From the NCBI GenBank assembly GCA_964430265.1, contig CAYSEI010000001.1:61574-125573 (forward strand): a stretch of 64,000 nt of DNA. The letters run 5' to 3'. A program made the position numbers and the translations under genes. This document shows positions 9,391 to 32,276 of the stretch, piece by piece. The notes under the pieces are model-generated. The model saw only the letters and a program-made list of their open reading frames with translations, did not search any database and had not been told where the DNA came from. How positions within the stretch are numbered: the stretch's first letter is position 1; every line of letters starts with the position of its first letter. Source of the stretch: an uncultured Pseudomonadales bacterium (GTDB taxonomy: Bacteria; Patescibacteriota; Microgenomatia; UBA1400; CAYXSR01).

Positions 9391-9425
9391 TTACTTCAAT
9401 TACCTAAAATTGAAAAAAGTAATCA

Positions 9426-16972: not shown

Positions 16973-18295
16973 TTACTGGTTTTTAGTTTTTTTCCAAAAA
17001 TTGCTTTGTCTGCAGAGCAAAGCATCCGCTTTTTTGGGGTTATTCATAATTTTTTTAACAACAATTTCTAAGAAAATGGTGTTTTGTGAGCCCTTAACAA
17101 GGATCAGATCATTTTTTTGGATATTCTTTTTGACAAATTCTGCTGCTTTGGATGGTGATAAAAATGTATGAATCTTTTCTTTGTTAAAACCTTTTTTAAC
17201 AGCTTCATTATAAAAGTATTTTTTCATTAAGGGACCGACTAAAATAATTTCATCAGCAATTTTGACTGCTTTTCTTGCAGCTTTTATGTGTTCTGTTTCT
17301 GCTTGTTCTCCCAGCTCGCGCATGTCTCCCAGAACTGCAACTTTTCTATTTTTAAACTGTTTAAGCGTATCAAGCATGCCTAAAAGCGGCTGCAAAGAAG
17401 AATTGTATGATGAATCAATTATTATAGAATTATTGATTCCTTGTATCAGAGTAGCTCTTCCCGGCGGAAGCTCCCAATTGCTTTGCAAATTTTTGGCAGT
17501 CTGCTTTTTTGATAATCCAATGTGTGTAGTAACTGTAAAGACAATTTCCAATGAAGAAAGATAGTATTTGGGTAGGGCATAACTGGGAAAATTGAGTGTT
17601 TGGTCCATAATTTCTACTTGTGTTCCTTTTTTTGTCACCTTAATTTGTCCACTATTATTATCCATATCAAATGATATCATTTCTGCTTTAATATGTTTTT
17701 TTATCTTGTCCAAGTAAAAAAAGTCTTTAGGGTAGACTGCCAATCCGTTTTCAGGGGCGGAAACAAGTATTTTGCTTTTTTGTTTGGCTATAGCATTTAC
17801 AAGAATTTTTTGTTTTTTATCTGGTGGAAGATTTTTTTGTTGTTTATTAAGAATTTTTTCAAACTGCATGGTGTGAACAGGGTAGACATTTAAAAGGATT
17901 GCAATGTCAGGTTTAACAATGGAAAGCAGATAGTCCATGTTTTTGGGTGGATAAGGGTCATCAATTCCATATTCAATAATTAAATACTCCGTATTTTTTA
18001 AATAGAAGAGACCAAAAGGCGCTTTAAGTGCTAGTAAAAGCCAGTTTTTAAGTGAATAAGTGTTTACTTTAACACCCAGGATTCCAAAAGGGATGCCGGT
18101 TTCGGAATTACCCTTTTTTATTGTTTTGGTTCTAAACGAGGGGGAAATTGCAGAGTAAAGCATATCCCTTAAAGAGCTTTTTCCGGCTGAGCCGGTAACA
18201 CCGATGATTTGTACTTTATTAATTTTTAAAGCTAATTTGGATAATAAGCGGATGTAAAATAAAAATGGCCAGCGCAGGATATTTTTAAAACTCAT
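16973..18295 (-). CDS. murF: Mur ligase family protein, most similar to UDP-MurNAc-tripeptide--D-Ala-D-Ala ligase MurF
   Basis: It has an IIGVTGSAGKSS P-loop and a C-terminal DSSYNSS...VAVLGDMRELGEQ block like MurF. Confidence 0.7.
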   Translation of the reverse strand: MSFKNILRWPFLFYIRLLSKLALKINKVQIIGVTGSAGKSSLRDMLYSAISPSFRTKTIKKGNSETGIPFGILGVKVNTYSLKNWLLLALKAPFGLFYLKNTEYLIIEYGIDDPYPPKNMDYLLSIVKPDIAILLNVYPVHTMQFEKILNKQQKNLPPDKKQKILVNAIAKQKSKILVSAPENGLAVYPKDFFYLDKIKKHIKAEMISFDMDNNSGQIKVTKKGTQVEIMDQTLNFPSYALPKYYLSSLEIVFTVTTHIGLSKKQTAKNLQSNWELPPGRATLIQGINNSIIIDSSYNSSLQPLLGMLDTLKQFKNRKVAVLGDMRELGEQAETEHIKAARKAVKIADEIILVGPLMKKYFYNEAVKKGFNKEKIHTFLSPSKAAEFVKKNIQKNDLILVKGSQNTIFLEIVVKKIMNNPKKADALLCRQSNFWKKTKNQ

Positions 18296-18313: not shown

Positions 18314-19192
18314 TTAGCCAAGCATTCTGCAAGCTTGAGCCTGGGATACTTCTTTAAAAACAACAGCTGATAACAGGTCTTGGGGGAATAGGTGAGTGCT
18401 GCGGCTAAGCTTTATGCTTGTAAGGATGCAGTCACTGTATGAAGCTTGAGCAATACCAAAATCACCTTCAATACCTTCCTGTGCTGGGAAATAGTCAAAT
18501 CTGTGCGGAGAATCTTTTATAAACTCCAAAACGTTTCTTAAAGTAATATGGTAGTTATTAGTATTTGGTCGTAATTCTGAATCCACTTTTTTAAGATGAG
18601 CTTCTACTTTAGCAAGATCTTTTCTAAGCGTTTGTTCCTCTGTTTGTGGATCTTTTAGATCAGGATGGTTAGAAAAATCAAAAACAACTGGAACATAGTC
18701 AGCCGGAGGTTGGTAGGGATCGGAAAATTGTTTTCCCAGCTCCCAAATTAAACCATCAGCTGGATCAATAATATTAAGAAATTTATCGTCCAACTGAGGA
18801 TGAATTCCTCTTTCTTCAAGAATTTTCTGATATTTTTTAAAATGAAAGTATGGGTTGGGGCTGCCCTGGATAGTGTATTCTGAAAGGTTAGCCATTGCTT
18901 TTGCTACTTTTTCGTCTGTGACAGGGTAAACTATAGGCAAAGCATAGAGCAGGGAAGCTGTTTCAATATATTCCTGTCTTTCAACCATTGCTTCGTAAGT
19001 GGGGTTAGTAGGAACTTCCGGAGTGGGGGTGGGTGTTTTATTCTCATGATTAGAGCAAGCGCCCAAAATTGAAGATAAGCCTAATATGCAGGTATTTCGG
19101 ATAAAAGTTCTTCTGTCCATTCTTGAATCATCTGTTTTGTCCGGTTGATTTAACTCTATTGGTTCTGGTTGAAAAAAGCTTTTTCTTTCCAT
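18314..19192 (-). CDS. Hypothetical lipoprotein with a twin-arginine-like signal
   Basis: The N-terminus reads ...RMDRRTFIRNTCILGLSSILGACS, with an RRxFI motif and an LGAC lipobox. Confidence 0.5.
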   Translation of the reverse strand: MERKSFFQPEPIELNQPDKTDDSRMDRRTFIRNTCILGLSSILGACSNHENKTPTPTPEVPTNPTYEAMVERQEYIETASLLYALPIVYPVTDEKVAKAMANLSEYTIQGSPNPYFHFKKYQKILEERGIHPQLDDKFLNIIDPADGLIWELGKQFSDPYQPPADYVPVVFDFSNHPDLKDPQTEEQTLRKDLAKVEAHLKKVDSELRPNTNNYHITLRNVLEFIKDSPHRFDYFPAQEGIEGDFGIAQASYSDCILTSIKLSRSTHLFPQDLLSAVVFKEVSQAQACRMLG

Positions 19193-19243: not shown

Positions 19244-20758
19244 TTAATTCTTTAAAATAGCAATTTCATTGATTTGTACAATAGTTTGGTTAAAGTTCAG
19301 GGTATCAGGAATTTTTTCTAAGTTTTCAATTATTGTGTATTTTAATCCGGGTTTGTCTTTTATTGGCTCTTTTCCTAGAAGCCAGCCAATGTAATAGTAG
19401 TTATCTGCAAAATTGTTTTCAAAATGATCATAAGGACCGATTCTTGATAAAGAATACGATTTTTCTCCAGAATCAACCACCACTATTTTCATAATCTTTG
19501 TTTGCAGAGAATAGGGGATATAGTGGGGGTTAAGTGAAACTTCATTCTTTGGAAGGTAATACCATTGCTTGGAAAAATAGAAGTTGGCGGAGACTAAGGA
19601 CAAGAATATGATTATGAATCCCAAAATCCTATTTTTTACAGTAGCTGATAGTTTAAAATTTAAAAGCCAGGATGCTAAAAAAATTTGAGGCAAGGGTAGG
19701 ATAGGAAGGAAATAATGGAGTGGAGGACTGGTGTGAATAAATAAGGCAACAAATGACCAGGCAGTTAAAAAAAGAAGAAATATCTGTATGCTATTTTTTT
19801 CTTTAAATATTTTCTTGATATTGCGATATATAAGAGTAAAGGGTCTTTTATAAATAATTAAGAAACCGGCAAGGATTAAAAGATAAAAGGAAGTAGAAAA
19901 CTGCCAAGGAAAAGTTTTGGGGAAAAATGAAAGTTTTAAAAAGCTTGTAAAACCACCAACAGTATCTGTAAAACTTGCAGAAGTTAGATTGTTCTTAGGG
20001 TATAGATGTAGAAAGCCAGCAATTCTATAAGGAATCCACAAAACAAACTTGGATATCATTTGAAAACCATTAAACACATCATAGATTAATAAAGGTGACA
20101 AAGGAATTAAAAAACCAAGAATAATTTTTTTCCATTTAATGTTTTTTTTTGTAAACCAGAAAACGGACAAAGTTGCCGGTATTAAAACCAAAGCCGTCAA
20201 GTGAAAATTAATAATTATTCCTAATAAGAGTCCCATAATAAAAGCATTTTTATCTTTTTCCAAATAGTTAGCCAAAAACCAGAAATAGAAATATAGAAGA
20301 AAAGGTACTAAGCAGAAAAATCTTGCTGATCGATTAAAATGTATAAATATTGGTGAAACAGCAATAAAAAAAGAAGAGAGTAGAGCTGTTTGTTTATTAA
20401 AAAACCTTTTAACAACAATATAGTTCAAAGGGATCATTGCTGTATAAATTAATGCAAAGAAATAAGCGGGTGCTAGAGGCGTGTAATTGGCAAGTAGCAT
20501 AACAGGAGTCATTAAATAGTAGAAAAGAGGTCCAAAGTGCAACCAAGGATGGGAAGTCGGAGGTCCAATAAAAGGTATCTTTTTATTTTCAATAAAATCT
20601 TTAATTGCTAAATAATTATCACCTTGTTCTGCATTGAAAGACATTATACTAGGAAGCCTATAAAAGCGCAGAAAAGCGGCGAGGGCAGTAATTAAAAGAA
20701 TTAAAATAAAATAAACATTTAATTTCTTCTTCATACTATAACTAATATTATACACCAT
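19244..20758 (-). CDS. GT-C family glycosyltransferase (PMT/ArnT-like, GT39/GT83)
   Basis: The 504-aa polytopic membrane protein has an N-terminal LRFYRL...PPTSHPWLHFGPLFYY motif region. Confidence 0.7.
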   Translation of the reverse strand: MVYNISYSMKKKLNVYFILILLITALAAFLRFYRLPSIMSFNAEQGDNYLAIKDFIENKKIPFIGPPTSHPWLHFGPLFYYLMTPVMLLANYTPLAPAYFFALIYTAMIPLNYIVVKRFFNKQTALLSSFFIAVSPIFIHFNRSARFFCLVPFLLYFYFWFLANYLEKDKNAFIMGLLLGIIINFHLTALVLIPATLSVFWFTKKNIKWKKIILGFLIPLSPLLIYDVFNGFQMISKFVLWIPYRIAGFLHLYPKNNLTSASFTDTVGGFTSFLKLSFFPKTFPWQFSTSFYLLILAGFLIIYKRPFTLIYRNIKKIFKEKNSIQIFLLFLTAWSFVALFIHTSPPLHYFLPILPLPQIFLASWLLNFKLSATVKNRILGFIIIFLSLVSANFYFSKQWYYLPKNEVSLNPHYIPYSLQTKIMKIVVVDSGEKSYSLSRIGPYDHFENNFADNYYYIGWLLGKEPIKDKPGLKYTIIENLEKIPDTLNFNQTIVQINEIAILKN

Positions 20759-20956
20759 GCTTAAAATTAAGAGTAAAGTGCTTTAAAATAGCTAAAATAT
20801 TGTCCGACATAATAAAGTATAAAAAATAACAGATTGTAACAGAATAAATATACGACTAATACATATGGGGGTATATGCTTATACAGTGGGAATGTATTAG
20901 GAAGAGCTAGCTTCTAGATGGAAATTACTTGAAGCTTTTATGCAGTTCTTTTTTTC

Positions 20957-22090
20957 TTAAAGATTTGATTTAAAAAATTTCTCAATTTTATTTGTAGTCT
21001 TTAACCAGGTAAATTTATTAATAACTTTGTTTCGGGCTTTTATTCCTAAATTTTCTATTTGTTTCTTATTTTTCAATAATTTTCTTACAGTTTTTGCAAA
21101 TTTTAAGGGTTCAGATCTTTCAATAAGATAGCCATTTATCTTATGATCTATAATTTCTGAAGGTCCTCCTTCGTTTACTGATATAACTGGAGTTTTACAG
21201 GCCATTGATTCAAGTAAAGATAACCCAAAAGGTTCTTTATAAGCACCGTTTAAATATAAATAAGATTCATTTAGATAATTTATTAATTCGGCATTTTTAG
21301 CTTTTTTAACAAATTTAATTTTGATTTGTTTATTATTTGCAATTTGTTTAATTTGTTTTTCTTGATTTCCTTCATAACCAGCAATAAGGAGTGTTGTAGT
21401 CATATCTGGGTAGTAGTGATTTAAAGTTTGGATAACCCAATGATGGCCTTTTAGAAAAGTGTAAGAACCAATTGATATTAAATACTTTTTATTCTTTTGA
21501 GTTGGTTTATATTTAAAGGAATCAACTCCTAAATATATTGGCTTGGAGTTTCTATTATAAATTCTGTTTATTTGTTCACTTGTATATTTAGAGTTCGTAA
21601 TAATATATTTGGCTTTTCTAGTGTTTAAAAAATCTATATGTTTAATGGGGTATCTATATAATTTTATAAGATTCATTTTAATAAATTTTGCAATTTTTTG
21701 AGTTTGAAATGTAGTTTGTTCGTAAAATTCTCGATTAGGTTCCTGACAAAAGTAAAAAGAAGGAGTTTCAAGATATTGGAGAAGATAGGGAGCTTGGGTT
21801 ACAATACAAGGATTTACAAAAACTAAATCATATTTCTTACTATCAATTTCTTTTGCAATTTTTTTCTGACAAAAACTTAATTCATTTAGTAATTTATATA
21901 AATTTATTTTTTTATTTATCTTATAAGTAAACTTTTTTTCTACTAATTTATCTAAAGTAAAAAAACTATCATTAAATAGGTCTAATGTATAACAATCAAT
22001 TTGGTTATTAAGTGAGAGATTTTCTGTAATTTTAAATAAACTCTTTCTTGCACCTCCAGGAGGTAGATTATGAAAGATTGCTATTTTCAT
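20957..22090 (-). CDS. Glycosyltransferase family 4 (GT-B)
   Basis: It has an EPFGLSLLESMACKTPVISVNEGGPSEII motif, matching the E-x7-E region. Confidence 0.8.
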   Translation of the reverse strand: MKIAIFHNLPPGGARKSLFKITENLSLNNQIDCYTLDLFNDSFFTLDKLVEKKFTYKINKKINLYKLLNELSFCQKKIAKEIDSKKYDLVFVNPCIVTQAPYLLQYLETPSFYFCQEPNREFYEQTTFQTQKIAKFIKMNLIKLYRYPIKHIDFLNTRKAKYIITNSKYTSEQINRIYNRNSKPIYLGVDSFKYKPTQKNKKYLISIGSYTFLKGHHWVIQTLNHYYPDMTTTLLIAGYEGNQEKQIKQIANNKQIKIKFVKKAKNAELINYLNESYLYLNGAYKEPFGLSLLESMACKTPVISVNEGGPSEIIDHKINGYLIERSEPLKFAKTVRKLLKNKKQIENLGIKARNKVINKFTWLKTTNKIEKFFKSNL

Positions 22091-23208
22091 TTAATTTTTT
22101 TATAAAATTGAATTAATTTTTGTGTACTTTTTTGCCAAGAAAATTTTTGTGAATGTTTATTGCCAGATTCAACATAATGATTTTTTTGTTTTGAGGAGAC
22201 TATGATTGTTTTCATAGAGTTAATTATTTCATTTGTACTTTTGGGATTTATTTTTATTGCTGAATCATTTGCGGCTTCCTCAATTCCTCCAGCATTTTTA
22301 GATGTAATTACTGGTGTATTCGATGACATAGCCTCAATAATTGGAATTCCAAAACCTTCATATAAAGAAGGATAAAGTAATGCTTCTGCACTTGAATAAA
22401 GCTTTGCTAATTCCTTTTCTTTTATATTTTTCAGGAAAATTAAATTTTTATATTTATTATCTAATTTTTGGTTTTTTCCTAGTATTACAAGCTGGAACTT
22501 ATTTTTATATAATTCATTAAACTTTAGAAATGCTTTTATTATTCTTAAGGAGTTTTTTCGAGGGGATAGTTCATAAAAAGAAAGAAAAAAATCCTTATTA
22601 ATGCCAAATTGATTTTTTATTTCTTTTTTATTTTTATCTGAGTATGGTTTAAAAATATTAGAATCAACACCTGGCTTTATGACCTCAATGATTCCTTTAT
22701 ATTTTGTTTTTTTAAGAATCTCATTTTTTGTTGAATTGGACTCAACAACTAAATATTTACAACTGTTTTCTACTCTTTTTAATTTTTCTTTATGTAGTTT
22801 ATAATTAGATTTTGATGTCCAGCTTGGATAATCGAGAAAATTCAAATCATGTATTGTAGCAATTCCTTTAATATTCCTAAGGGGAGGATGATAGACCCCA
22901 AAAGAGTGAAAAATATCGGTGTTTCTTATTAAGCAATCAATAAAAGGATAATTTAGCTTTTGCCAAATTAAAAGAACATCATTAGTTATTTTACTAGGTA
23001 AGGGAATTATTATCTTCTTAGGTTGTTTAAAGTTAGACTCCAAAAAACTAATGAAGTTTTTATGTGTTTTTATTGGACAATAGGAGAATAATGTAAGTTT
23101 AATATTAGGATCTATATCTAAGTTTTTAAGAATATAATAAGTGTATTTTGAAGACCCACTATTGATGCCATTTATTAAAGTTGAAACATCTATTGTAATT
23201 TTGAGCAT
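22087..23208 (-). CDS. Glycosyltransferase family 4 (GT-B)
   Basis: It has a YEGFGIPIIEAMSSNTPVITSKNAGGIEEAA motif. It overlaps the downstream GT4 gene by 4 nt. Confidence 0.8.
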   Translation of the reverse strand: MLKITIDVSTLINGINSGSSKYTYYILKNLDIDPNIKLTLFSYCPIKTHKNFISFLESNFKQPKKIIIPLPSKITNDVLLIWQKLNYPFIDCLIRNTDIFHSFGVYHPPLRNIKGIATIHDLNFLDYPSWTSKSNYKLHKEKLKRVENSCKYLVVESNSTKNEILKKTKYKGIIEVIKPGVDSNIFKPYSDKNKKEIKNQFGINKDFFLSFYELSPRKNSLRIIKAFLKFNELYKNKFQLVILGKNQKLDNKYKNLIFLKNIKEKELAKLYSSAEALLYPSLYEGFGIPIIEAMSSNTPVITSKNAGGIEEAANDSAIKINPKSTNEIINSMKTIIVSSKQKNHYVESGNKHSQKFSWQKSTQKLIQFYKKIK

Positions 23209-23250
23209 AGTTTATTATAAATGATTATAATTAATAAAATAAATTAATAG

Positions 23251-25818
23251 TTGAGCAAAACTCTAAACCTAGTTAGAAATATCTTAATTCTAAATTTTAG
23301 TTTATTTTTTCTTTTTTGTCCTAAGTCGTGCAGAGCTAATGAAACTGTTTTTTTTGAAGAAAATTTTAATTCTTCAACTTCTGACTTTATGTTTTCTAGT
23401 AAGTGGGATGTTTATTCTAATTTGGGTACCATATATATTAATGAAGGTAATATAAAATTAGATTCGTTTTCTTATTCATTTCCATTTGTTAAAACAAAAA
23501 TTAATCCATTTCCAGAAGAAGATTTTGTTTTAGAAATGAAGCTTAAATATTTAAGATCAGCTAATTGGGGAACAGGTATTTCTATTGGTACAGAGGCACC
23601 ATATAATGGAATTAGCCAAGAAGAGCTTTTAGATCTTGGAAATGATGTACAAATGTTTTTTATTTGGCAAGATGATCATAGAGATTTCCATGTTTCCTCA
23701 AGAAATTGTTATCAGTGTAACCCAGAAGTAACTGACTATCTCAATTGGGAGGAATCAGTAAATGAAGATTTATTTTTGAACATTATGTACATTGATGGAT
23801 ACTATGAAGTTATTTTGAATGATGTTTCCTACTTCAGAAGTTCACAAGCTGTAGTAAAAAAGCCATCTGTTATTTGGTTTGGAAATCCAATTTCGATAAC
23901 TACTGATGGGTCTCCATGGACAAGCTTTGAAATAGACTATATTAGAGTCAAAACTTCTGGATATACGCATCCAGTAATTCTTCTTCCCGGACATGGTGGG
24001 TCTTGGTGTTGGGATGGTTTAATACTGGGAAAAGAATGTAATGAGTGGAAGCAGACACCATTTGTTCATGTTTATGATAATTTTAGAAGTTCAATGTTAA
24101 ATGCAGGATATACAGAGGGAGTAGACTATTATGAATTCTATTATGATTGGAGGGATCATTTGGATAATCTTGCTGCAGATTTGGATACATATATAGATAG
24201 TACTGTTTTAAATGGAAGTCAGGATAATACAAAAGTTAAGCTTGTTGGGCATTCAATGGGAGGATTGGTATCTCGCACATATGCACAAAATTATGGAACT
24301 GAAAAGCTAGAAAAAGTTGTAACCGTAGGTTCTCCCCATAAAGGCGCATTAGCGGCCTACAGAGGATGGGAAGGAGGAGAAACGACTGAATATCCTTCGT
24401 GGCGCAATGTAGCTTTTGAGATTTTAGTGCAAATTCATAAAGATTTTTTTGAAAATCGTATGAAAGCAGTGCGTGAACTTGCTCCGTCCACAAAAGAAAT
24501 GATTCCAATATTTGATTTTCTTAAAGAAAATGACGGAACTATAAAAAAATCGGATTCTCTGATTCATACTAATAATTTCCTAATCAATCTTCAGGAAAGT
24601 ATGGATGGAACTTTAAAAAGTATTATGGCTACAGTCAATGGAAGGGGAGAGAATTCTGTTGAATATTATGTAATTAAGGATAGAAATGTCTTAGATAAAC
24701 TTATGGGTAGATGGGAAGATGGAAGAGTTGAAACTCGGGAAATGACAGATGAGGGTGACGGAACTGTTTTAACAAAAGGAGCGGAAATAGAGGTAGTTAA
24801 TACTGAAACTTTAGATATGGGTCATACAGAATTAATTGAAACATATGAAGGATTGGAGAAGATATTTAATGCTTTAAACATTAATGTTACTCCTAATATA
24901 GTGAGTGTGCCAAGTCCAATTGAAGATGCTTTAGTATTTATCATCCGCTCACCAGCAAAATTAAGAATAACTGCATCTGATGGAGAACAAGCAGGCTATG
25001 GAATAGATAATCCAATTTCTGGAAGTGAATATTATGAAGAAGAGGGTATTGTAATAATTCATCAATTGCAGGAAGGTGATTATAAAGTGGAAGTGATTCC
25101 CACTGGGAGCGGAGAATACCACTTGGATATTGGCAAAATTAAACAAGAAATAAGTGATTGGAAGACATTTAAAGGACAGATTGATGATTTAGAACAAAAA
25201 GATGAATATAATTTCGTATTTTCGTCGGGTAGTGAAGAGGTTGTGCTTGACACCCCCAAAGATGGTGTAAATTATGTTCAATTATCAATAATTAAACTTA
25301 ATCATCTTGAAAATTATATTCGCAATAACGTTGAAGAACCCCAAAAAGACCAGTTTATATGGCATATTAATATAATGTTAGAATATTTACAGGCGCTTAA
25401 AGAAAATGAAATTGAGTACAAATATACATACAATACCATGAAACAATCTTTTTTACTACGAAGAAAACTCGAAAATATAGAAAATGAGCAAAATCGTGTT
25501 TATTGTAAAAATCAAGTTGATGAAGTTATCAAATACTTAAAATATGTGTTGATCAATCGACTCCAACAAAACATATCAAACCCTAATATTCAGAAAATTG
25601 ATAATTTTTATTATGCAAATAATAATACAATTGATGATTTAGAAGATGATTTGGAAATTGAAGCAGAAAAAGGACCTAATAATGTATTAGCAAGCTTATA
25701 TAAATCAATTTTGAAAAGTAAGGAAACGGCAGAGAATACAGAAAGCTTTGAAAAATGGGCGGAGATTTTTTCTAATCGCTTCTACCTCTGGAGTCTTTTG
25801 AGTTTATTAAGTAATTAA
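23251..25818 (+). CDS. Secreted multidomain protein with an alpha/beta-hydrolase lipase/esterase domain
   Basis: It has a signal peptide, a nucleophile elbow (GHSMGG) in VGHSMGGLVSRTYAQNYG, and an upstream VILLPGHGGSW oxyanion region. N- and C-terminal domains of unknown function flank the hydrolase core. Confidence 0.7.
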   Translation: MSKTLNLVRNILILNFSLFFLFCPKSCRANETVFFEENFNSSTSDFMFSSKWDVYSNLGTIYINEGNIKLDSFSYSFPFVKTKINPFPEEDFVLEMKLKYLRSANWGTGISIGTEAPYNGISQEELLDLGNDVQMFFIWQDDHRDFHVSSRNCYQCNPEVTDYLNWEESVNEDLFLNIMYIDGYYEVILNDVSYFRSSQAVVKKPSVIWFGNPISITTDGSPWTSFEIDYIRVKTSGYTHPVILLPGHGGSWCWDGLILGKECNEWKQTPFVHVYDNFRSSMLNAGYTEGVDYYEFYYDWRDHLDNLAADLDTYIDSTVLNGSQDNTKVKLVGHSMGGLVSRTYAQNYGTEKLEKVVTVGSPHKGALAAYRGWEGGETTEYPSWRNVAFEILVQIHKDFFENRMKAVRELAPSTKEMIPIFDFLKENDGTIKKSDSLIHTNNFLINLQESMDGTLKSIMATVNGRGENSVEYYVIKDRNVLDKLMGRWEDGRVETREMTDEGDGTVLTKGAEIEVVNTETLDMGHTELIETYEGLEKIFNALNINVTPNIVSVPSPIEDALVFIIRSPAKLRITASDGEQAGYGIDNPISGSEYYEEEGIVIIHQLQEGDYKVEVIPTGSGEYHLDIGKIKQEISDWKTFKGQIDDLEQKDEYNFVFSSGSEEVVLDTPKDGVNYVQLSIIKLNHLENYIRNNVEEPQKDQFIWHINIMLEYLQALKENEIEYKYTYNTMKQSFLLRRKLENIENEQNRVYCKNQVDEVIKYLKYVLINRLQQNISNPNIQKIDNFYYANNNTIDDLEDDLEIEAEKGPNNVLASLYKSILKSKETAENTESFEKWAEIFSNRFYLWSLLSLLSN

Positions 25819-25831
25819 AGCAGAAAATTTC

Positions 25832-26947
25832 TTAAGTTAGAATTTTACCTTCTTTTAAAACAATTTTGTTGTCAACTTTAATAATTGAACCGTCCAAACG
25901 CATGTCTTTGACAATATCCCAATGTATTGCAGATTCGTTTTCCCCGCCGCCGCGTTTTTCTTTATAAGCTCGTCCAAGTGCCATATGAATGGTTCCACCA
26001 ATTTTTTCATCAAAAAGAGTATTTTTCATTACCTGGTAAATTTCGTAGTTGGCACCAATAGCAAACTCACCTATATATCTTGCACCTTCATCAGTATCAA
26101 GAGCCTTTTCAAGTGCTTTTTGTCCTTTACTGGCTTTGGCTTCCACGACTTTACCTTTTTTAAATTTTAAATATACACCTTCAACATCTCGGCCAAACCT
26201 TCTTGTTGGCAAGTCAAAAAATATTTCTCCTTCTAGGGTATTTTTAATTGGAGCAAGAAAAACTTCTCCGTCTGGAATATTTCTTTCTCCATAGCAGGCA
26301 AGTGCAAGCCTGTCTTTGATGGAAAAAGCCAATTTTGTCTTTTTCCCAAAGACCTCAACTCTTTTTCCCTTATCAAGGATCTTTTCGATTTTTTTCAACT
26401 TTTTTTTCATTTTGTTGTAGTCAATAATGCAAGCATTATAGTAAAAATCAAGGAGCCAGTCATAAGAAACTCCAGCATCCTGAGCCATTGATGGGGTTGG
26501 ATAGACTGTTAAAATCCAACGGTCAGAATCAATCATTTTGTCAATTAGAGGTTTCATTATTTTTTGTCTGGTAGTTAACTTTTCCGGCTTGATTTGAGCT
26601 AATTCCTTAGAATTACTAATTGAAGCAAGTCGGATAAAAGCATCTGCCCATTCAATCCGTGCATTGATAACATTTTCCGGGATTTGTTTTAACTGCCAAT
26701 CATTTGCAAGTTTGTAAAATTGATAGGCAAAGCCGCCTACTGAGCTTCTTCCAACAGTCATATCTAATTCACCAATATCAATAACAGGATACAGCCCCTT
26801 TTTAAGGCATTCAATATATGTGGCCTTTGCCAAAGAAAAAGCAGAAGAATCAGATACTGTAATTAATACTTTTTCCTTTTCTTTTAAATTAAGGGAGTGA
26901 TTAATAAATATTTTAGCCAGCTGGTGATCTTTAGGATGGGGAAGCAT
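25832..26947 (-). CDS. Aminopeptidase, M29 (AmpS/aminopeptidase T) family
   Basis: The C-terminus reads GEFAIGANYEI...GGTIHMALGRAY...ESAIHWDIV. The overall length also fits M29. Confidence 0.75.
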   Translation of the reverse strand: MLPHPKDHQLAKIFINHSLNLKEKEKVLITVSDSSAFSLAKATYIECLKKGLYPVIDIGELDMTVGRSSVGGFAYQFYKLANDWQLKQIPENVINARIEWADAFIRLASISNSKELAQIKPEKLTTRQKIMKPLIDKMIDSDRWILTVYPTPSMAQDAGVSYDWLLDFYYNACIIDYNKMKKKLKKIEKILDKGKRVEVFGKKTKLAFSIKDRLALACYGERNIPDGEVFLAPIKNTLEGEIFFDLPTRRFGRDVEGVYLKFKKGKVVEAKASKGQKALEKALDTDEGARYIGEFAIGANYEIYQVMKNTLFDEKIGGTIHMALGRAYKEKRGGGENESAIHWDIVKDMRLDGSIIKVDNKIVLKEGKILT

Positions 26948-27820: not shown

Positions 27821-29152
27821 CTAATTCAATATCTCAACAAAAGAGTTTGCCAAATTCCAAATTTTTATATTTTTTGGAAGTTTAATCTTTTTGCCTTTAT
27901 ATATAAAAATACCAATAGGATCAGCATTGTGTTTCCCTATTTGCGGCGGGTTGTTTTTAGTAAAAAGTTTCTCTGCAAAAAGATCAGGATCAACTATAAA
28001 TTCTTTATTTGCCAGAAAAACAACATCTGGAACGTTGGGATTCTTGTTTGATCGGGAATAAACTTCCTGTTTTGTTTTTACCCATTTAAAAACTTTTTTG
28101 TTATTATGTTTAAGTTTTTTTAAAGCTTTAATAATCGGGAGGATTTTTGTTTTGTCTTTAACAAATATGCCGTTTTGGAAAGGCTGAACATCAAGAATTT
28201 CTGAATGTTTTTTTTCTTGCTTTTTAATATAGTTATCTCTTTGTTTTTTTAGCTTTTTAAAAACAGCTAGGTTTTTTACAAGTCTCCAACCCATTTTTGC
28301 CAGGCCAATAAACGGACAGCAGGTTTTTGTTGTTTGGGGCATTAGTTTTTGTTTTTGTAAATATGGAGTAATGTAAAAGCGGGTTTTAGGTGTTGCATGA
28401 AAACCGTGGTCAGATATTACAAAAAAGTGTAGTTTATCCTCATATTTATTTTTAAACAACCGGTAGATGTTTTCTAAGTATTTATCTAGTTTTTTGTACA
28501 CCTGCAAAGTTTGCTTTTTTTTCCAAAAAATATGCTGGACAGTATCGGTTGCCCTAAAAAGTGCAAAAAAGAAATCCCAATCTTTAAAGTCGGCAAGCTT
28601 TTTAATTGCCAAATATCTTTTTTCTGCTACATCCAATATTTGTTTATAGATTTGTTCTTTTTTTTGCAAAATTTGTTCTTCCGCCCCAAAGAGTCCGTAT
28701 TTTTCCATTTCCACATCCACTTTGTAACCAATTTTTTCAAGCATTTTTTGTATTTCAGGATGGTTGCAAAAATCCCTACCAGGTGGTGTAAGAAGGGAGG
28801 AAATAATGATGCCTTTTGCTTTTGGGAGCGGATAGGCAAGGGGAAGGTTAATAAAACAATACTCTTTATTTTCCTTTTCCATTTTTTTCCAGAATCTATC
28901 TATTTTTAAAGAAGAACTGTCAACAATTTTATTATTTCTGGTTTTAAAACCCCAGATTCCATGTTCTCCGGGTGATTTGCCCGTCTGAAATGAAGCCCAT
29001 GCCGGGGCAGTCATAGCCGGTATAGTGCTTTGGAGATTAGAGTAAATTCCTTGTTTTTTCAGTTTATTTAAAAAGGGAAGTTTGTCCAGCCATGGATCAA
29101 GAATATTCCAGGTTGCACCGTCAAGACCGATGACAATTACTTTATTATTCAT
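27821..29152 (-). CDS. Alkaline phosphatase superfamily protein (type I phosphodiesterase/nucleotide pyrophosphatase-like)
   Basis: The N-terminal metal-site motif reads VIVIGLDGATWNIL...TIPAMTAPAWASFQTGKSPGEHGIW. Confidence 0.7.
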   Translation of the reverse strand: MNNKVIVIGLDGATWNILDPWLDKLPFLNKLKKQGIYSNLQSTIPAMTAPAWASFQTGKSPGEHGIWGFKTRNNKIVDSSSLKIDRFWKKMEKENKEYCFINLPLAYPLPKAKGIIISSLLTPPGRDFCNHPEIQKMLEKIGYKVDVEMEKYGLFGAEEQILQKKEQIYKQILDVAEKRYLAIKKLADFKDWDFFFALFRATDTVQHIFWKKKQTLQVYKKLDKYLENIYRLFKNKYEDKLHFFVISDHGFHATPKTRFYITPYLQKQKLMPQTTKTCCPFIGLAKMGWRLVKNLAVFKKLKKQRDNYIKKQEKKHSEILDVQPFQNGIFVKDKTKILPIIKALKKLKHNNKKVFKWVKTKQEVYSRSNKNPNVPDVVFLANKEFIVDPDLFAEKLFTKNNPPQIGKHNADPIGIFIYKGKKIKLPKNIKIWNLANSFVEILN

Positions 29153-29252: not shown

Positions 29253-29498
29253 ATGATAACAACAGTTACAGTTAGTTCTAGAGGGCAGATAGTAATTCCT
29301 CAGAAGTTTAGAAAAGTATTTGGGATTGAGAAATCTGATAAATTGATTGTTGAATTAGACGAGGATAAACTAACAATGAAACCGGTTTTATCAATTGATG
29401 AGGCTTTTGGCATTGTAAAAACTAAGAAGAAGTTCTCAGAAAATGACTACGATAAAGCTATTTCTAAAGCTGTCATAGAAAAATTTTTGGATAAATGA
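29253..29498 (+). CDS. AbrB/MazE/SpoVT-family antitoxin
   Basis: The ORF begins MITTVTVSSRGQIVIPQKFRKVFGIEKSDKLIVE, a swapped-hairpin AbrB-type motif. Confidence 0.75.
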   Translation: MITTVTVSSRGQIVIPQKFRKVFGIEKSDKLIVELDEDKLTMKPVLSIDEAFGIVKTKKKFSENDYDKAISKAVIEKFLDK

Positions 29499-29866
29499 TT
29501 TATTTAGATACTAGTTGTTTAGTACGATTCTTTACTAAAGATCAGATAAAAAAAGCAAAACAAGTTAAAAAGCTGATTGAAAGTAGTAAGAAGCTTGCTG
29601 TTTCTGATGTAGTTTTTCCCGAACTTGAATATGTATTGTCTAATCTGTATCAAGTCAAAAGGCAGAAGCTAATAAGAATTTATCAGTTTTTAAAAGCACA
29701 AAAAAATATTAGAACATCACAAACAGCTAGCGCTTCTATAGGTTTGTATTCAAATTCTAATCTAGATATGGCTGACTGTATGATTGCTGTAAGTTCTAGA
29801 GACGGAAAATTAGCCAGTTATGATGAGCAATTATTAAAAGCAAAAGGTGTTAAAAGCTATTTTTGA
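29495..29866 (+). CDS. PIN-domain toxin (VapC-like)
   Basis: It begins MIYLDTSCLVRFF and has a ...DMADCMIAVSSRDGKLASYDEQL acidic-residue pattern. It overlaps the antitoxin gene by 4 nt. Confidence 0.7.
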   Translation: MIYLDTSCLVRFFTKDQIKKAKQVKKLIESSKKLAVSDVVFPELEYVLSNLYQVKRQKLIRIYQFLKAQKNIRTSQTASASIGLYSNSNLDMADCMIAVSSRDGKLASYDEQLLKAKGVKSYF

Positions 29867-30591: not shown

Positions 30592-30640
30592 AAGTTATAT
30601 TCTTTTTTTTAGTTACTTTACATTTATATTATTAAAGCAG

Positions 30641-30757: not shown

Positions 30758-32254
30758 ATGAAAAGGGCGAAAATACTATTAAAAAATGTAGTGGTTAATT
30801 TTTTAACCCAAGCACTGACTTTTTTGGTTTCTTTTATTGCTACTCCGTATATTTTTCATAATCTTGGTGAGGAAAAGTTTGGGTTGTTAATGCTTTTTGT
30901 AACAATAAACGGCTGGTTTGTTATTTTTGATCTGGGAATGATACCGGCAATGATAAAATATTTAGCAGAAATTTTGGAGAATAAGAAAAAAAAGAAAGAA
31001 CTGGTAAATACAGCTTGGACAGCAACTCTATTAATAGTTCTTGCAGGTGGTGGTTTGGTTGCTTTTTTTGCAGACTTTTTAATTAAAAATGTTTTTAAAG
31101 TTTCTTTGGAGATTGAAAGTTTAGCAATTATGAGTTTAAGATTGATGTCAATCAGCTTTGTTTTTACTTTATTGAGTAATTTTTTGACCGGCATACCAAG
31201 GGCAATGCAAAAATTTGAGATTGCCAATTTAAAAAATCTTTTTTTGGGACTTTTTATACCTTTAGGGTCAGTTATACTTTTGTTTTCTGGTTTTGATTTT
31301 TCCGAGGTTATTTGGGTGTATATTTGTACAAATTTTTTCGCTTTTGTAATATTTTTAATTATTGCTAACAAACTTTTGGGAGAAGTGAATATTGGGTTCG
31401 GGTTAAACAAAAAGGTATTAAAAAAGATTCTCTCTTTTTCATTTTTTAAATTTATTTCTCGTTTAACAGCACGAGTAAACTTTCAATTGAACCATTTTTT
31501 GATTGCTTCCTTTTTGTCTGTTTCACAGCTGGGTTTTTATGCAGTGCCAGCAGGAATAGGGGAGAAACTCTTGTCGGTCCTTCCCAACTTGACTCTGCCG
31601 ATTTTTCCTTTAGCTTCAGAGCTGGAAAAGGGTGGCGAAAAAGAAAATATTAAAAAATTGTATAAAGAAGCAGTCAGACTGTCCAATTTTCTTATGACGC
31701 CAGTTTTTATTTTTTTGGTGTTTTTCGGACCGGAATTTTTAGAAATTTGGATGGGAGAGGATTTTGCTAGAAATGCGGGTTTAGTTTTACAAATATTGTC
31801 TTTTGTTTATTTGCTTTCTTCCTATCCTGCAGTTCCGGCTGCAATAATAGAAGGATCAGGAAAACCACAATTGACTGCTTTTTGGGGTGGAGTAAACACT
31901 GTTTTACTAACTTTAAGTGCTTTGATTTTAATTCCGCATTTTGGACTTGTTGGAGCTGCAGGCTCAATGCTTTTTTCTCGAGTTATTCAAGTTCCACTTT
32001 TCATATTCTGGATAACTTACAAAGAGATCGGGATAAAAAAATTAAGATTTTTTTGGGACGGGTATGCAAAGATACTAATTTTAAGTGTTATCAGTGCGGC
32101 AATAGTATATTCACTTCCGCTTGGACAAAATACATTATTCAGGCTGGTTATCTCTTTGTTTATCTACTTAATAATTGGAGCATTTTTTTCCTACATTACT
32201 AATACTATCGGCAAAAGGGATATTAAGACTCTAAAGCAAATTTTAAATAAATAA
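30758..32254 (+). CDS. Polysaccharide/oligosaccharide flippase (Wzx/MOP superfamily)
   Basis: It is a 498-aa protein with about 12-14 transmembrane helices and a polysacc_synt-type N-terminus. Confidence 0.7.
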   Translation: MKRAKILLKNVVVNFLTQALTFLVSFIATPYIFHNLGEEKFGLLMLFVTINGWFVIFDLGMIPAMIKYLAEILENKKKKKELVNTAWTATLLIVLAGGGLVAFFADFLIKNVFKVSLEIESLAIMSLRLMSISFVFTLLSNFLTGIPRAMQKFEIANLKNLFLGLFIPLGSVILLFSGFDFSEVIWVYICTNFFAFVIFLIIANKLLGEVNIGFGLNKKVLKKILSFSFFKFISRLTARVNFQLNHFLIASFLSVSQLGFYAVPAGIGEKLLSVLPNLTLPIFPLASELEKGGEKENIKKLYKEAVRLSNFLMTPVFIFLVFFGPEFLEIWMGEDFARNAGLVLQILSFVYLLSSYPAVPAAIIEGSGKPQLTAFWGGVNTVLLTLSALILIPHFGLVGAAGSMLFSRVIQVPLFIFWITYKEIGIKKLRFFWDGYAKILILSVISAAIVYSLPLGQNTLFRLVISLFIYLIIGAFFSYITNTIGKRDIKTLKQILNK

Positions 32255-32276
32255 TATATATGGTAAACTATAGGAG

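What the first reader, a model, noticed from the sequence alone, without database searches (positions are those of the whole stretch)
19244..25818. Low-GC block encoding a PMT/ArnT-like GT-C enzyme, two GT4 glycosyltransferases and a secreted lipase-domain protein
Hand counts over 60-nt samples give about 20-25% GC through 19244-23460, against 35-47% in the flanking housekeeping genes. The block encodes a PMT/ArnT-type lipid-linked glycosyltransferase and two overlapping GT4 genes. With the nearby Wzx flippase (30758) and O-antigen-ligase/TPR protein (46199), this points to a strain-variable surface glycosylation module, possibly horizontally acquired.
Basis: seen in the sequence. Interest (0 to 1): 0.5.

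Follow-up and report, generated by a model that had tools for sequence, protein, structure and literature searches.

The report
Variable sugar-transferase cassette beside exported lipase
In this ultrasmall (Patescibacteria) bacterium, a real AT-rich patch holds two sugar-transferase genes that related genomes lack at this site. They sit back-to-back with an exported lectin-plus-phospholipase gene that marks variable surface-sugar clusters across this bacterial group, while the neighbouring membrane sugar-transferase is an ordinary conserved resident.

Summary
The GC dip is real but narrower and shallower than reported. Its core is about 20760-23600, i.e. the two GT4 genes (24.6% and 25.5% GC; window mean 35.1%; lowest 2.25-kb stretch, z = -3.6). 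Flanking genes are 33-40% GC, not 35-47%. All four gene calls hold.

The block is composite:
- **PMT_2/GT-C gene:** normal synonymous-site GC, and conserved next to the Mur ligase in three related genomes that have no GT4 genes beside it. It is resident backbone.
- **GT4 pair:** compositionally atypical and absent from this site in those relatives. It has no close homologue among billions of proteins except one at 83% and one at 49% identity.
- **855-aa "lipase":** an exported ConA-like lectin fused to a Ser-Asp-His hydrolase whose closest solved relatives are the T6SS phospholipase Tle4 and LPLA2/LCAT. Its ortholog sits beside the same M29 peptidase gene in the closest relative.

In 7 of 7 resolvable contexts, homologues of this lipase are transcribed divergently from glycan clusters of variable, often low-GC content. 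The Wzx-like and Wzy_C/TPR genes are distant and are not shown to belong.

Verdict: a lineage-variable glycan cassette, probably exchanged within Patescibacteria. No mobility signature or donor was found, and strain-level variability could not be tested.

The parts
19244..20758 (-). PMT_2-family GT-C glycosyltransferase (504 aa; the NCBI protein P0241 starts 8 codons later). A resident backbone gene, not part of the atypical cassette.
   Evidence: Pfam PMT_2 32.1 bits against cut-off 26.1. AF2 model pLDDT 90.8. Foldseek hits to STT3/AglB/PglB, ArnT 5f15 (TM 0.58/0.54), Pmt4 and ALG9. GC3 27.7% and fourfold-site GC 24.9%, p = 0.32. Orthologs at 52-54% identity sit next to the Mur ligase in L001 and L172-174. 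47 of 120 listed homologues are GT2-PMT_2 fusions.
20759..20956 (.). 198-bp spacer between GT4a and the PMT_2 gene; one edge of the atypical segment.
   Evidence: 28.8% GC. No repeat, tRNA or Rfam match.
20957..22090 (-). GT4a, a family-4 (GT-B) glycosyltransferase of 377 aa with an EX7E motif (EPFGLSLLE).
   Evidence: Glycos_transf_1 107.7 bits. GC 24.6%, GC3 15.1%, fourfold-site GC 16.8%. Apart from itself, homologues are one at 83% identity (a 1.2-kb contig) and then at most 39%. No NCBIfam equivalog reached.
22087..23208 (-). GT4b, a family-4 glycosyltransferase of 373 aa with an EX7E motif (EGFGIPIIE). Its stop overlaps the GT4a start by 4 nt.
   Evidence: Glycos_transf_1 84.1 bits. GC 25.5%, GC3 17.9%. 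Best representative among 1.84 billion is 49% identical, the rest at most 40%. Only 29% identical to GT4a, over the C-terminal 127 residues, so not a recent duplicate.
23209..23250 (.). 42-bp divergent intergenic region between GT4b and the lipase gene.
   Evidence: 7% GC. The same back-to-back arrangement, with 26-68 bp gaps, occurs in L084-86, L168, L170/171, L175, L176 and L177.
23251..25818 (+). Lip855, an exported multidomain protein: signal/anchor helix 2-21, ConA-like lectin domain 32-235, alpha/beta-hydrolase domain 241-545 (Ser335-Asp503-His525), beta-sandwich 559-657, helical bundle 673-854.
20759..23600 (.). True low-GC core: the GT4 pair, both spacers and the 5' end of the lipase gene.
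   Evidence: 300-nt windows read 20-28% GC. The window-wide minima of GC and of tetranucleotide correlation both fall here.
25832..26947 (-). M29 aminopeptidase, the conserved anchor flanking the cassette on one side.
   Evidence: Pfam 206.6 bits. 80% identical in L167, 68% in L001, 69% in L087.
16973..18295 (-). Mur ligase, the conserved backbone partner of the PMT_2 gene on the other side.
   Evidence: Pfam. Adjacent to the PMT_2 ortholog in L001 and L172-174.

Best explanation
The block is composite: a resident gene plus a variable cassette.

(1) Resident gene. The PMT_2 GT-C enzyme is a resident membrane glycosyltransferase of this lineage. By analogy with ArnT, PMT and STT3, it transfers sugar from a polyprenyl-phosphate-linked donor to an acceptor on the outer face of the membrane. 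Its usual partner is a GT2 enzyme, to which it is fused in many relatives.

(2) Cassette. Between the PMT_2 gene and the M29 peptidase gene lies a two-part unit found throughout the Microgenomates-type Patescibacteria. It consists of an exported lectin-plus-phospholipase-like serine hydrolase (Lip855) transcribed back-to-back with a glycan-synthesis cluster whose gene content differs from lineage to lineage. Here the cluster is minimal: two translationally coupled cytoplasmic GT4 enzymes. They would add two sugars in succession from nucleotide sugars to a membrane-bound acceptor, either a polyprenyl-linked glycan or a glycolipid.

(3) Evolution. The GT4 genes are the replaceable part. Their low GC, atypical oligonucleotide usage, absence from the same site in relatives and lack of close homologues fit cassette replacement drawn from the Patescibacteria glycan-gene pool, as happens in O-antigen and capsule loci.

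(4) Lip855. It is exported, binds carbohydrate through its ConA-like domain, and cleaves or transfers an acyl ester of a membrane lipid through Ser335-Asp503-His525.

Shown: composition, gene families, folds, catalytic residues, synteny, recurrent neighbourhood. Inferred: donor and acceptor substrates, direction of the insertion or deletion, any functional link between Lip855 and the glycan, and any link to the distant flippase.
For: Composition.

Synteny:
- L001 has M29|PMT_2|Mur ligase with a 431-bp gap that holds no ORF of 50 aa or more, and no Lip855 or GT4 hit at tblastn E <= 1e-4 anywhere in the 21 kb held.
- L172-174 have SIMPL|PMT_2|Mur ligase|NTP transferase|SecE|NusG|L11|L1.
- L167, the closest relative (M29 80%), has Lip ortholog|M29|Pth|Wzx.
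- None of the other Patescibacteria loci anchored on M29 shows a Lip855 or GT4 hit.

Recurrent neighbourhood: in 7 of 7 resolvable contexts, Lip855 homologues sit 26-68 bp from a divergently transcribed cluster of GT2, GT4, methyltransferase, Wzx, Wzy, GT87 or pyruvyl-transferase genes. This holds in at least three different genomic settings: S26-ParB-L27-L21-FtsW, NicO-TGT, and M29.

Other clusters:
- Their GTs are only 22-37% identical to GT4a and GT4b.
- Their genes are also mosaic in GC. In L084 the methyltransferase is 23.5% and a GT2 26.9%, against 34-40% nearby. In L170 the methyltransferase GC3 is 31%, against 60-70% nearby.
- GT4a's best homologues with known context lie in such Microgenomates clusters.

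Folds and residues.
Against: - No mobility hallmark (tRNA, integrase, direct repeats) at either edge.
- No donor or close homologue was identified.
- Karlin codon bias is not an outlier.
- Another unrelated gene (56866-58173) has equally low fourfold-site GC.
- Lip855 shares the low synonymous GC yet appears vertically shared with L167. Low GC3 alone therefore does not prove recent transfer.
- The L167 contig ends inside the lipase gene, so whether the closest relative has the GT4 pair is unknown.
- GT4 substrates are unassigned: every NCBIfam equivalog hit is far below its cut-off.
- The PMT_2 gene lies on the same strand 198 bp downstream of GT4a, so co-transcription and a functional link cannot be excluded.
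Confidence: 0.6

Rival explanations
1. There was no transfer. The GT4 pair and Lip855 are native, fast-evolving, weakly constrained surface genes. AT-biased mutation has pushed them to low GC, and relatives simply lost them.
For: - No mobile-element signature.
- All homologues lie in Patescibacteria or Chloroflexota, and none is close.
- Lip855 is shared with L167 at the same site yet is only 42.5% identical where M29 is 80%, and its GC3 is also low.
- About half of the GT4 GC deficit comes from amino-acid composition.
- Codon bias B is within 1 SD of the mean.
Against: - Tetranucleotide usage of the GT4 pair is the most deviant in the window (r = 0.40 against 0.79 +/- 0.08).
- Homologous clusters elsewhere show GC3 jumps too large for drift, e.g. 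31% against 60-70% in L170.
- Gene content differs completely between those clusters.
- Relatives L001 and L172 show no Lip855 or GT4 hit at E <= 1e-4, and the M29-PMT_2 gap in L001 has no ORF of 50 aa or more.
Confidence: 0.25
2. The whole of 19244-25818, including the PMT_2 gene, is one acquired island. It works as one surface-glycosylation module together with the Wzx-like flippase at 30758 and the Wzy_C/TPR protein at 46199.
For: - GT4b, GT4a and PMT_2 lie on the same strand and could be co-transcribed.
- GT-C (GT87), Wzx and Wzy genes do occur inside the equivalent clusters of other Microgenomates.
- The window's flippase-like and ligase-like genes are confirmed by Pfam.
Against: - The PMT_2 gene has normal synonymous GC.
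- It is conserved beside the Mur ligase in relatives without the GT4 pair.
- Its family is fused to GT2, not GT4.
- The flippase keeps its position next to Pth and the 1180-aa protein in L001 and L087, where no GT4 or lipase genes are seen, and in L167.
- Housekeeping genes (M29, SIMPL, Pth, tRNA, GlmS, NAD synthase and others) separate the parts.
Confidence: 0.1
3. Lip855 has nothing to do with the neighbouring glycan genes. It is a secreted, lectin-targeted phospholipase aimed at the membranes of host or neighbouring bacteria. It merely sits at a recombination-prone border where glycan cassettes are swapped.
For: - The N-terminal binding domains vary between homologues (ConA-like, beta-helix, beta-propeller, Kelch, Ig-like).
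- The family carries signal peptides.
- Conserved genes that flank variable glycan loci need not be functionally related to them (general knowledge of capsule and O-antigen loci).
Against: - The back-to-back arrangement with a 26-68 bp gap is kept in at least three different genomic settings. This argues that the pair moves or stays together.
- At least one canonical glycan locus lacks a Lip gene (L081), so Lip is not simply a fixed chromosomal landmark.
Confidence: 0.35
4. The low-GC segment is an assembly or binning chimera joined into the contig.
For: The source is a metagenome-assembled contig: the proteins P0001, P0121 and P0241 are recorded on a single 405,517-bp NCBI contig. The GT4a-PMT_2 and GT4b-Lip junctions are not seen in any other assembly.
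Against: - The Lip-M29 junction is reproduced independently in L167.
- The Lip-to-GT divergent arrangement is reproduced in many assemblies.
- ORFs are intact and tightly packed, with a 4-nt overlap.
- An 83%-identical GT4a exists in another sample.
Confidence: 0.03

Closest known systems
Variable O-antigen and capsule loci with low-GC glycosyltransferase cassettes between conserved flanking genes (general knowledge)
   Same: - Low-GC, compositionally atypical GT genes.
- Complete turnover of gene content between lineages at a conserved position.
- Cluster mates elsewhere include Wzx, Wzy, methyltransferases and pyruvyl- or acyl-transferases.
   Different: - Here the cluster is only two GT4 genes.
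- No initiating phosphoglycosyl transferase, Wzx or Wzy lies in the block.
- The organism is a Patescibacterium with no outer membrane or LPS.
- The conserved partner is an exported lectin-lipase, not a sugar-nucleotide gene.
ArnT / PMT / STT3-AglB-PglB type GT-C glycosyltransferases (Pfam PMT_2, CAZy GT39/GT83-like)
   Same: Pfam PMT_2 above its cut-off. Multi-helix GT-C fold, with the best TM score to ArnT 5f15. A nearly invariant acidic residue (E44) lies in the first external loop.
   Different: - No sequence-level PDB hit and no NCBIfam equivalog.
- A family-specific invariant GPPTSHPW motif.
- 47 of 120 listed homologues carry an N-terminal GT2 domain.
- Donor and acceptor are unknown.
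Tle4 (Pseudomonas aeruginosa T6SS antibacterial lipase effector, PDB 4R1D) and LCAT / LPLA2 phospholipase-acyltransferases
   Different: - Sec-type signal peptide rather than T6SS delivery.
- No adjacent Tli-like immunity gene recognised.
- Extra ConA-like lectin, Ig-like and helical domains.
- Sequence identity only 20-23%.
- Activity untested.
GT4 retaining glycosyltransferases (BshA, MshA, PimA/PimB, TarM, PglJ, glycolipid synthases)
   Same: Glycos_transf_1 domain and EX7E motif. The best PDB and NCBIfam similarities are to BshA, MshA, GlgA, TarM and GlcNAc-phosphatidylglycerol synthase.
   Different: Every equivalog score is far below its cut-off, so no donor or acceptor can be assigned.
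Two- or three-component extracytoplasmic glycosylation (GT2 polyprenyl-phosphate sugar synthase plus GT-C transferase, e.g. ArnC/ArnT, GtrB/GtrC, CsbB/YfhO; general knowledge)
   Same: The GT2-PMT_2 fusions among homologues suggest this logic for the PMT_2 gene.
   Different: The window's PMT_2 is unfused, and no GT2 gene was found among the annotated genes of the 64-kb window. The fused GT2 domains resemble rhamnosyltransferase-type GT2 more than any named polyprenyl-phosphate sugar synthase.

Membership tests
CAZy GT4 / Pfam Glycos_transf_1 (GT4a, GT4b) | C-terminal Glycos_transf_1 domain above the Pfam gathering score | tested here: met
   107.7 and 84.1 bits against 26.4
CAZy GT4 / Pfam Glycos_transf_1 (GT4a, GT4b) | EX7E motif in the nucleotide-sugar binding domain | tested here: met
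   EPFGLSLLE in GT4a and EGFGIPIIE in GT4b, read from the translations and aligned to each other
CAZy GT4 / Pfam Glycos_transf_1 (GT4a, GT4b) | N-terminal Glyco_transf_4-type acceptor domain | tested here: inconclusive
   GT4b scores 25.6 bits, below the 28.5 cut-off. GT4a has no hit.
Any named GT4 equivalog (BshA, MshA, EpsE, glycolipid synthases and others) | Score at or above the NCBIfam curated cut-off | tested here: not met
   Best scores are 83 and 92 bits against cut-offs of 260-800
GT-C, PMT_2 family (ArnT/PMT-like) | PMT_2 profile above the gathering score | tested here: met
   32.1 bits against 26.1
GT-C, PMT_2 family (ArnT/PMT-like) | Polytopic GT-C fold | tested here: met
   AF2 pLDDT 90.8, pTM 0.90. 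Foldseek probability 1.0 to STT3, AglB, PglB, ArnT, Pmt4 and ALG9.
GT-C, PMT_2 family (ArnT/PMT-like) | Conserved acidic residue in the first extracytoplasmic loop | tested here: met
   E44 is conserved in at least 90% of 38 homologues. Its equivalence to the catalytic Asp/Glu of ArnT or PMT is inferred, not superposed.
GT-C, PMT_2 family (ArnT/PMT-like) | Polyprenyl-phosphate-sugar donor and a defined acceptor | not testable with these tools
   Needs biochemistry
LCAT / PGAP1 / Tle4-like alpha/beta-hydrolase lipases (Lip855) | Family profiles above the gathering score | tested here: met
   LCAT 39.3 against 21; PGAP1 39.6 against 24.3
LCAT / PGAP1 / Tle4-like alpha/beta-hydrolase lipases (Lip855) | GXSXG nucleophile and Ser-Asp-His triad conserved | tested here: met
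   H334, S335, G337, G338, D503 and H525 are invariant in 42 sequences
LCAT / PGAP1 / Tle4-like alpha/beta-hydrolase lipases (Lip855) | Structural similarity of the catalytic domain | tested here: met
T6SS Tle4 effector proper | T6SS delivery context and an adjacent Tli immunity gene | tested here: not met
   The protein has a Sec-type signal peptide. Its neighbours are GT4b and M29. No T6SS genes were found in the window.
Horizontally acquired genomic island | Atypical base and oligonucleotide composition | tested here: met
   GC z = -3.6, fourfold-site GC p = 6e-4, lowest tetranucleotide correlation in the window. This applies to the GT4 pair, more weakly to Lip855, and not to PMT_2.
Horizontally acquired genomic island | Absence from the same site in related genomes | tested here: met
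   Absent in L001 and L172-174. The closest relative, L167, is unresolved for the GT4 pair.
Horizontally acquired genomic island | Mobility genes, a tRNA target or flanking direct repeats | tested here: not met
   No such repeats. The nearest tRNA is at 30640. No integrase or transposase domain among the neighbours.
Horizontally acquired genomic island | Identifiable donor or phylogenetic incongruence | tested here: inconclusive
   Nearest homologues are 83% (a fragment), 49%, and then at most 40% identical. No tree was built.
Wzx/Wzy-dependent polysaccharide gene cluster | Initiating transferase, flippase and polymerase or ligase encoded together with the GTs | tested here: not met
   None lies in 19244-25818. 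The MOP flippase is 5 kb away and the Wzy_C/TPR gene 20 kb away, with housekeeping genes between. No initiating transferase was found in the window.
Anti-phage defence GT4 ('GT4-conflict', PADLOC systems) | Match to defence-system models | tested here: not met
   PF20706 scores 25.4 and 23.8 bits, below its 26 cut-off. No PADLOC hit for any of the five proteins.

The most novel reading that the evidence does not exclude
The Lip855 family could be the missing lipid-handling enzyme of Microgenomates-type Patescibacteria. In this reading it is an exported, lectin-guided, Tle4/LCAT-like phospholipase or transacylase that strips acyl chains from the membrane phospholipids of a host or neighbouring bacterium, leaving lysolipids. 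Its conserved back-to-back pairing with variable glycan or glycolipid GT clusters would then reflect one of two things. Either the harvested lipid is used to build or anchor the cell's own surface glycoconjugate, or the glycan protects the producer from its own lipase, serving the role of an immunity factor. [quoted passage not shown]
Probability: 0.12. Interest if true: 0.75.

Novelty: new variant of a known kind. Interest (0 to 1): 0.4.

Why it matters
On its own the finding is a fairly ordinary case: a variable, AT-rich glycosyltransferase cassette, here in a Patescibacteria genome. It shows that these reduced genomes also keep a replaceable surface-glycan locus.

The more useful result is the neighbour. 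An uncharacterised, Microgenomates-wide family of exported lectin-plus-Tle4/LCAT-like hydrolases marks the edge of these variable clusters in every context examined. These bacteria cannot make their own lipids and are thought to live on other cells. A conserved secreted phospholipase-type enzyme with interchangeable binding domains is therefore a concrete, testable candidate for host-membrane attack or lipid acquisition. Its linkage to surface-glycan genes gives a handle on how these cells build or protect their envelope.

Tried and rejected
- **Exact-sequence look-ups** of GT4a, M29 and P0001 found no contig on record, so the source genome's wider context could not be read. Cluster look-up gave no names or accessions.
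- **Metagenome scan with PMT_2** found no relative. The repeat scan with M29 added only L087 as a close relative, and that contig ends 0.8 kb past M29.
- **Mobile-element signs.** Flanking direct or inverted repeats were only short AT-rich chance-like matches. No tRNA lies at the borders. Promoter-like and terminator-like sites occur at shuffle level. Rfam found only four tRNAs elsewhere.
- **Defence-system reading of the GT4s** was rejected: no PADLOC hit, and PF20706 is below its cut-off.
- **Tandem duplication of the GT4s** was rejected: 29% identity over the C-terminal third only.
- **A recombination breakpoint inside the lipase gene** was rejected: GC3 is uniformly 0.20-0.24 in all domains.
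- **Remnants of Lip or GT4 in the gaps of L001, L172 and L087.** A relaxed tblastn of the gaps gave only weak short matches, but its output was cut and the Lip855 and GT4 rows were not seen. The standard search found no Lip855 or GT4 hit at E <= 1e-4 in L001 or L172 and none at E <= 10 in L087.
- **Literature searches** for Patescibacteria glycan clusters, lipases or GT islands found nothing specific.
- **Assigning GT4 substrates** through NCBIfam or PDB failed; similarity is only generic.

Full report
**Source organism.** The window has 35.1% GC. Its gene content is a patchwork of housekeeping genes: ATP synthase, L1/L11/NusG, Mur ligase, Pth, GlmS, MreBCD/PBP2, topoisomerase, NrdD, ThyA, DHFR and FTHFS. 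Interspersed are giant surface proteins. The nearest relatives retrieved through the M29 peptidase are metagenome-assembled Patescibacteria of the Microgenomates type (Woese-, Roizman-, Dojka- and Beckwithbacteria labels), at no more than 68% identity in GTDB species representatives. Proteins of the block occur once in the protein collection, on a 405,517-bp NCBI contig.

**The observation.**
- A GC dip exists. One-kb bins fall to 24.5-28.9% over 20001-24000, and 300-nt windows read 20-28% from about 20600 to 23600.
- Per-gene GC: GT4a 24.6% (GC3 15.1%), GT4b 25.5% (GC3 17.9%), PMT_2 30.7% (GC3 27.7%), Lip855 32.1% (GC3 21.7%). Across 50 ORFs the mean GC is 34.5 +/- 3.8% and the mean GC3 is 28.3 +/- 4.6%.
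- The lowest 2.25-kb stretch of the whole window lies on the GT4 pair (24.4%, z = -3.6). The next lowest non-overlapping stretch is 30.4%.
The figure of 35-47% for the flanks is too high; they are 33.6-38.7%.

**Is the composition atypical beyond amino-acid content?**
- Given each protein's amino-acid composition and the window's codon usage, the expected GC of the GT4 genes is already 28.5-29.0%. About half the deficit is therefore compositional (Lys, Asn, Ile, Phe and Tyr make up 45-47% of residues).
- The remainder is synonymous: -4.4 and -3.1 points for the GT4 genes and -2.8 points for Lip855, but only -0.3 for PMT_2.
- Pooled fourfold-degenerate-site GC is 18.3% in the GT4 pair against 28.6% elsewhere (p = 6e-4). 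With Lip855 added it is 19.4% against 29.0% (p = 2e-6). PMT_2 is 24.9% (p = 0.32).
- Tetranucleotide usage of the GT4 pair is the most deviant in the window (r = 0.40 against 0.79 +/- 0.08). The dinucleotide signature deviates by about +1.6 to +1.9 SD. Karlin's codon bias is unremarkable.
- One unrelated gene (56866-58173) has equally low fourfold-site GC, so the measure alone is not unique to the block.

**Gene identities.** All four calls hold.
- *PMT_2.* It passes Pfam's cut-off. Its AF2 model (pLDDT 90.8) has the GT-C fold of STT3/AglB/PglB, ArnT (best TM score), Pmt4 and ALG9.
- *GT4a and GT4b.* Both carry Glycos_transf_1 domains and EX7E motifs, overlap by 4 nt, and are not recent duplicates. 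No NCBIfam equivalog or close PDB sequence assigns a substrate.
- *Lip855 architecture.* The AF2 model (pLDDT 88.7) shows an N-terminal hydrophobic helix, a ConA-like beta-sandwich, an alpha/beta-hydrolase domain, a second beta-sandwich and a helical bundle.
- *Lip855 catalytic residues.* H334, S335 (GHSMGG), D503 (GDGTV) and H525 are invariant in 42 homologues.
- *Lip855 export.* 35 of 39 full-length homologues have a signal-peptide-like N-terminus.

**Synteny.** Window order, read in the orientation of the relatives: Wzx-like | tRNA-Ala | Pth | PIN/MazE | PDE | SIMPL | M29 | Lip855 | GT4b | GT4a | PMT_2 | hyp292 | Mur ligase | two small ORFs | NTP transferase | NusG | L11.
- *L001* (M29 68% identical): Wzx | Pth | SIMPL | M29 | PMT_2 (52%) | Mur ligase | NTP transferase | NusG | L11. 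The 431-bp gap between M29 and PMT_2 has no ORF of 50 aa or more, and the locus shows no Lip855 or GT4 hit at E <= 1e-4.
- *L172-174* (PMT_2 54%): SIMPL | PMT_2 | Mur ligase | NTP transferase | SecE | NusG | L11 | L1.
- *L167*, the closest relative (M29 80%, Pth 65%, Wzx 56%): a Lip855 ortholog (42.5% over residues 252-846) convergent with M29, exactly as in the window. The contig ends inside that gene, so the GT4 position is unseen.
- *L087* (M29 69%): a different small ORF follows M29.
- No other M29-anchored Patescibacteria locus shows Lip855, GT4a, GT4b or PMT_2 hits.

It follows that PMT_2-Mur ligase is conserved backbone. The GT4 pair is absent from the site in the two relatives where the site is fully visible. 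Lip855 is at least as old as the ancestor shared with L167, and it evolves much faster than its neighbours.

**Where else do these genes occur?**
- *GT4a.* One homologue is 83% identical, on a 1.2-kb contig. All others are 39% or lower.
- *GT4b.* The best representative among 1.84 billion is 49% identical; the rest are at most 40%.
- *GT4a homologues with readable context* (34-37% identity) lie in Microgenomates glycan clusters next to S26-ParB-L27-L21-FtsW-IleRS.
- *Lip855 homologues.* 182 hits with E <= 0.001, carrying Microgenomates labels wherever a source names them. They have interchangeable N-terminal domains: ConA-like/3-keto-disaccharide-hydrolase, beta-helix, GH130/GH32-like, Kelch, PQQ and Ig-like.

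**Recurrent neighbourhood.** In every context that could be resolved, the Lip gene is transcribed divergently, 26-68 bp away, from a glycan cluster. These contexts are the window, L084-86, L168, L170/171, L175, L176 and L177. The content of the cluster differs each time, drawing on methyltransferases, GT2, GT4, Wzx, Wzy_C, GT87, pyruvyl transferase, acyltransferase_3 and His-phosphatases. L177 even starts with two consecutive GT4 genes, as the window does, but they are only 24-32% identical to GT4a and GT4b. The other flank of Lip is usually S26-ParB-L27-L21-FtsW, but it is NicO-TGT in L084 and M29 in the window and L167. The pair therefore persists across different chromosomal settings. These clusters are also GC mosaics. 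In L084 the methyltransferase is 23.5% and a GT2 26.9%, against 34-40% nearby. In L168 the methyltransferase is 28%, against about 38%. In L170 the methyltransferase GC3 is 31%, against 60-70% in neighbours.

**The PMT_2 family.** All 120 listed homologues are metagenomic or Patescibacteria proteins. 47 carry an N-terminal GT2 domain fused to the PMT_2 domain. That GT2 domain resembles rhamnosyltransferase-type GT2 enzymes, below their cut-offs. This points to a GT2 enzyme, not the GT4 pair, as the natural partner of the GT-C enzyme. The window's copy is unfused, and no GT2 gene was found among the annotated genes of the 64-kb window.

**Interpretation.** The GT4 pair is the variable, compositionally foreign part. 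The most economical reading is cassette replacement or gain drawn from the Patescibacteria glycan-gene pool, as in O-antigen and capsule loci. That remains an inference for four reasons:
- There is no mobility signature.
- There is no traceable donor.
- The closest relative is unresolved at the GT4 position.
- Lip855, which appears vertically inherited, shares the low synonymous GC. AT drift in fast-evolving surface genes is therefore a live rival.

The Wzx-like MOP flippase keeps its place in relatives L001 and L087, where no GT4 or lipase genes are seen, and in L167. The Wzy_C/TPR gene is 20 kb away. Neither is shown to be part of a module with this block.

**Mechanism (inferred).**
- GT4b and GT4a, translationally coupled and cytoplasmic, add sugars from nucleotide donors to a membrane-bound acceptor.
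- The product would need a flippase. The one at 30758 is a candidate only.
- PMT_2 acts separately on the outer face, using a polyprenyl-phosphate sugar.
- Lip855 is exported, binds carbohydrate, and hydrolyses or transfers an acyl ester of a membrane lipid.

Whether Lip855 acts on the cell's own glycoconjugate or on the membranes of other bacteria is open. Its closest structural relatives (Tle4, LPLA2, LCAT, PlaB) and its swappable binding domains favour a phospholipid substrate. Its conserved pairing with glycan clusters argues for some link to the envelope glycan.

**Novelty.** A low-GC variable GT cassette is a known kind of feature. The consistent pairing with a lectin-Tle4/LCAT-like exported hydrolase was not found in the literature searched. 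It bears on the stated gap that lipid uptake and breakdown mechanisms are unidentified in Patescibacteria (PMC11665869). I rate it a new variant of a known kind, of moderate interest.

Noticed in passing
window 5248-12251 (+): Two giant predicted surface proteins. The first (1380 aa) has Laminin_G_3/ConA-like, DUF2341 and Peptidase_S74 (endosialidase-chaperone, tail-spike-like) domains. The second (941 aa) has Lcl_C and GH114-associated domains. This region has the most deviant dinucleotide signature in the window.
   Followed up: partly
window 29253-29866 (+): A MazE-like antitoxin plus PIN-domain toxin pair with low GC3. It is absent between SIMPL/M29 and Pth in relatives L001, L087 and L167. 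This is a second small insertion or deletion in the same neighbourhood.
   Followed up: partly
window 27821-29152 (-): A type I phosphodiesterase / nucleotide pyrophosphatase gene that is present here but not between SIMPL and Pth in L001 or L087.
   Followed up: no
window 18314-19192 (-): A 292-aa protein with no Pfam or NCBIfam match and a Tat/lipobox-like N-terminus (RRTFIRN...LGAC). It has relatively high GC (38.7%). It sits between PMT_2 and the Mur ligase here but is absent there in L001 and L172-174.
   Followed up: partly
window 56866-58173 (+): A 435-aa ORF with no Pfam domain. Its fourfold-site GC of 15.8% (p = 5e-4) is as low as in GT4a, so it may be another atypical or fast-evolving gene.
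   Followed up: no
window 30758-35819 (+); L167 3845-8842: The MOP-family (Polysacc_synt/MurJ-like) flippase is immediately followed by a gene for an approximately 1180-aa protein with a weak GH5 match. The same pair is conserved in L167.
   Followed up: no
PMT_2 homologues P0251-P0356: About 40% of the listed homologues of the GT-C protein are single polypeptides with an N-terminal GT2 domain and a C-terminal PMT_2 domain. The family also has an invariant GPPTSHPW motif.
   Followed up: partly
L081, L083, L168, L170, L175-L177: Many Microgenomates keep their variable glycan cluster at one conserved chromosomal position, next to signal peptidase S26-ParB-L27-L21-FtsW-IleRS. Individual genes within it drop sharply in GC.
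   Followed up: partly
L001, L011, L012, L016 and others: Several public MAG records with clearly Patescibacteria-like gene content and synteny are titled 'uncultured Pseudomonadales' or 'Gammaproteobacteria'. This is probably a labelling artefact of the submission.
   Followed up: no
window 46199-48310 (-): A 703-aa Wzy_C (O-antigen ligase-like) protein with C-terminal TPR repeats. It overlaps or abuts the nadD-like and M16 peptidase genes. Its synteny in relatives was not examined.
   Followed up: no
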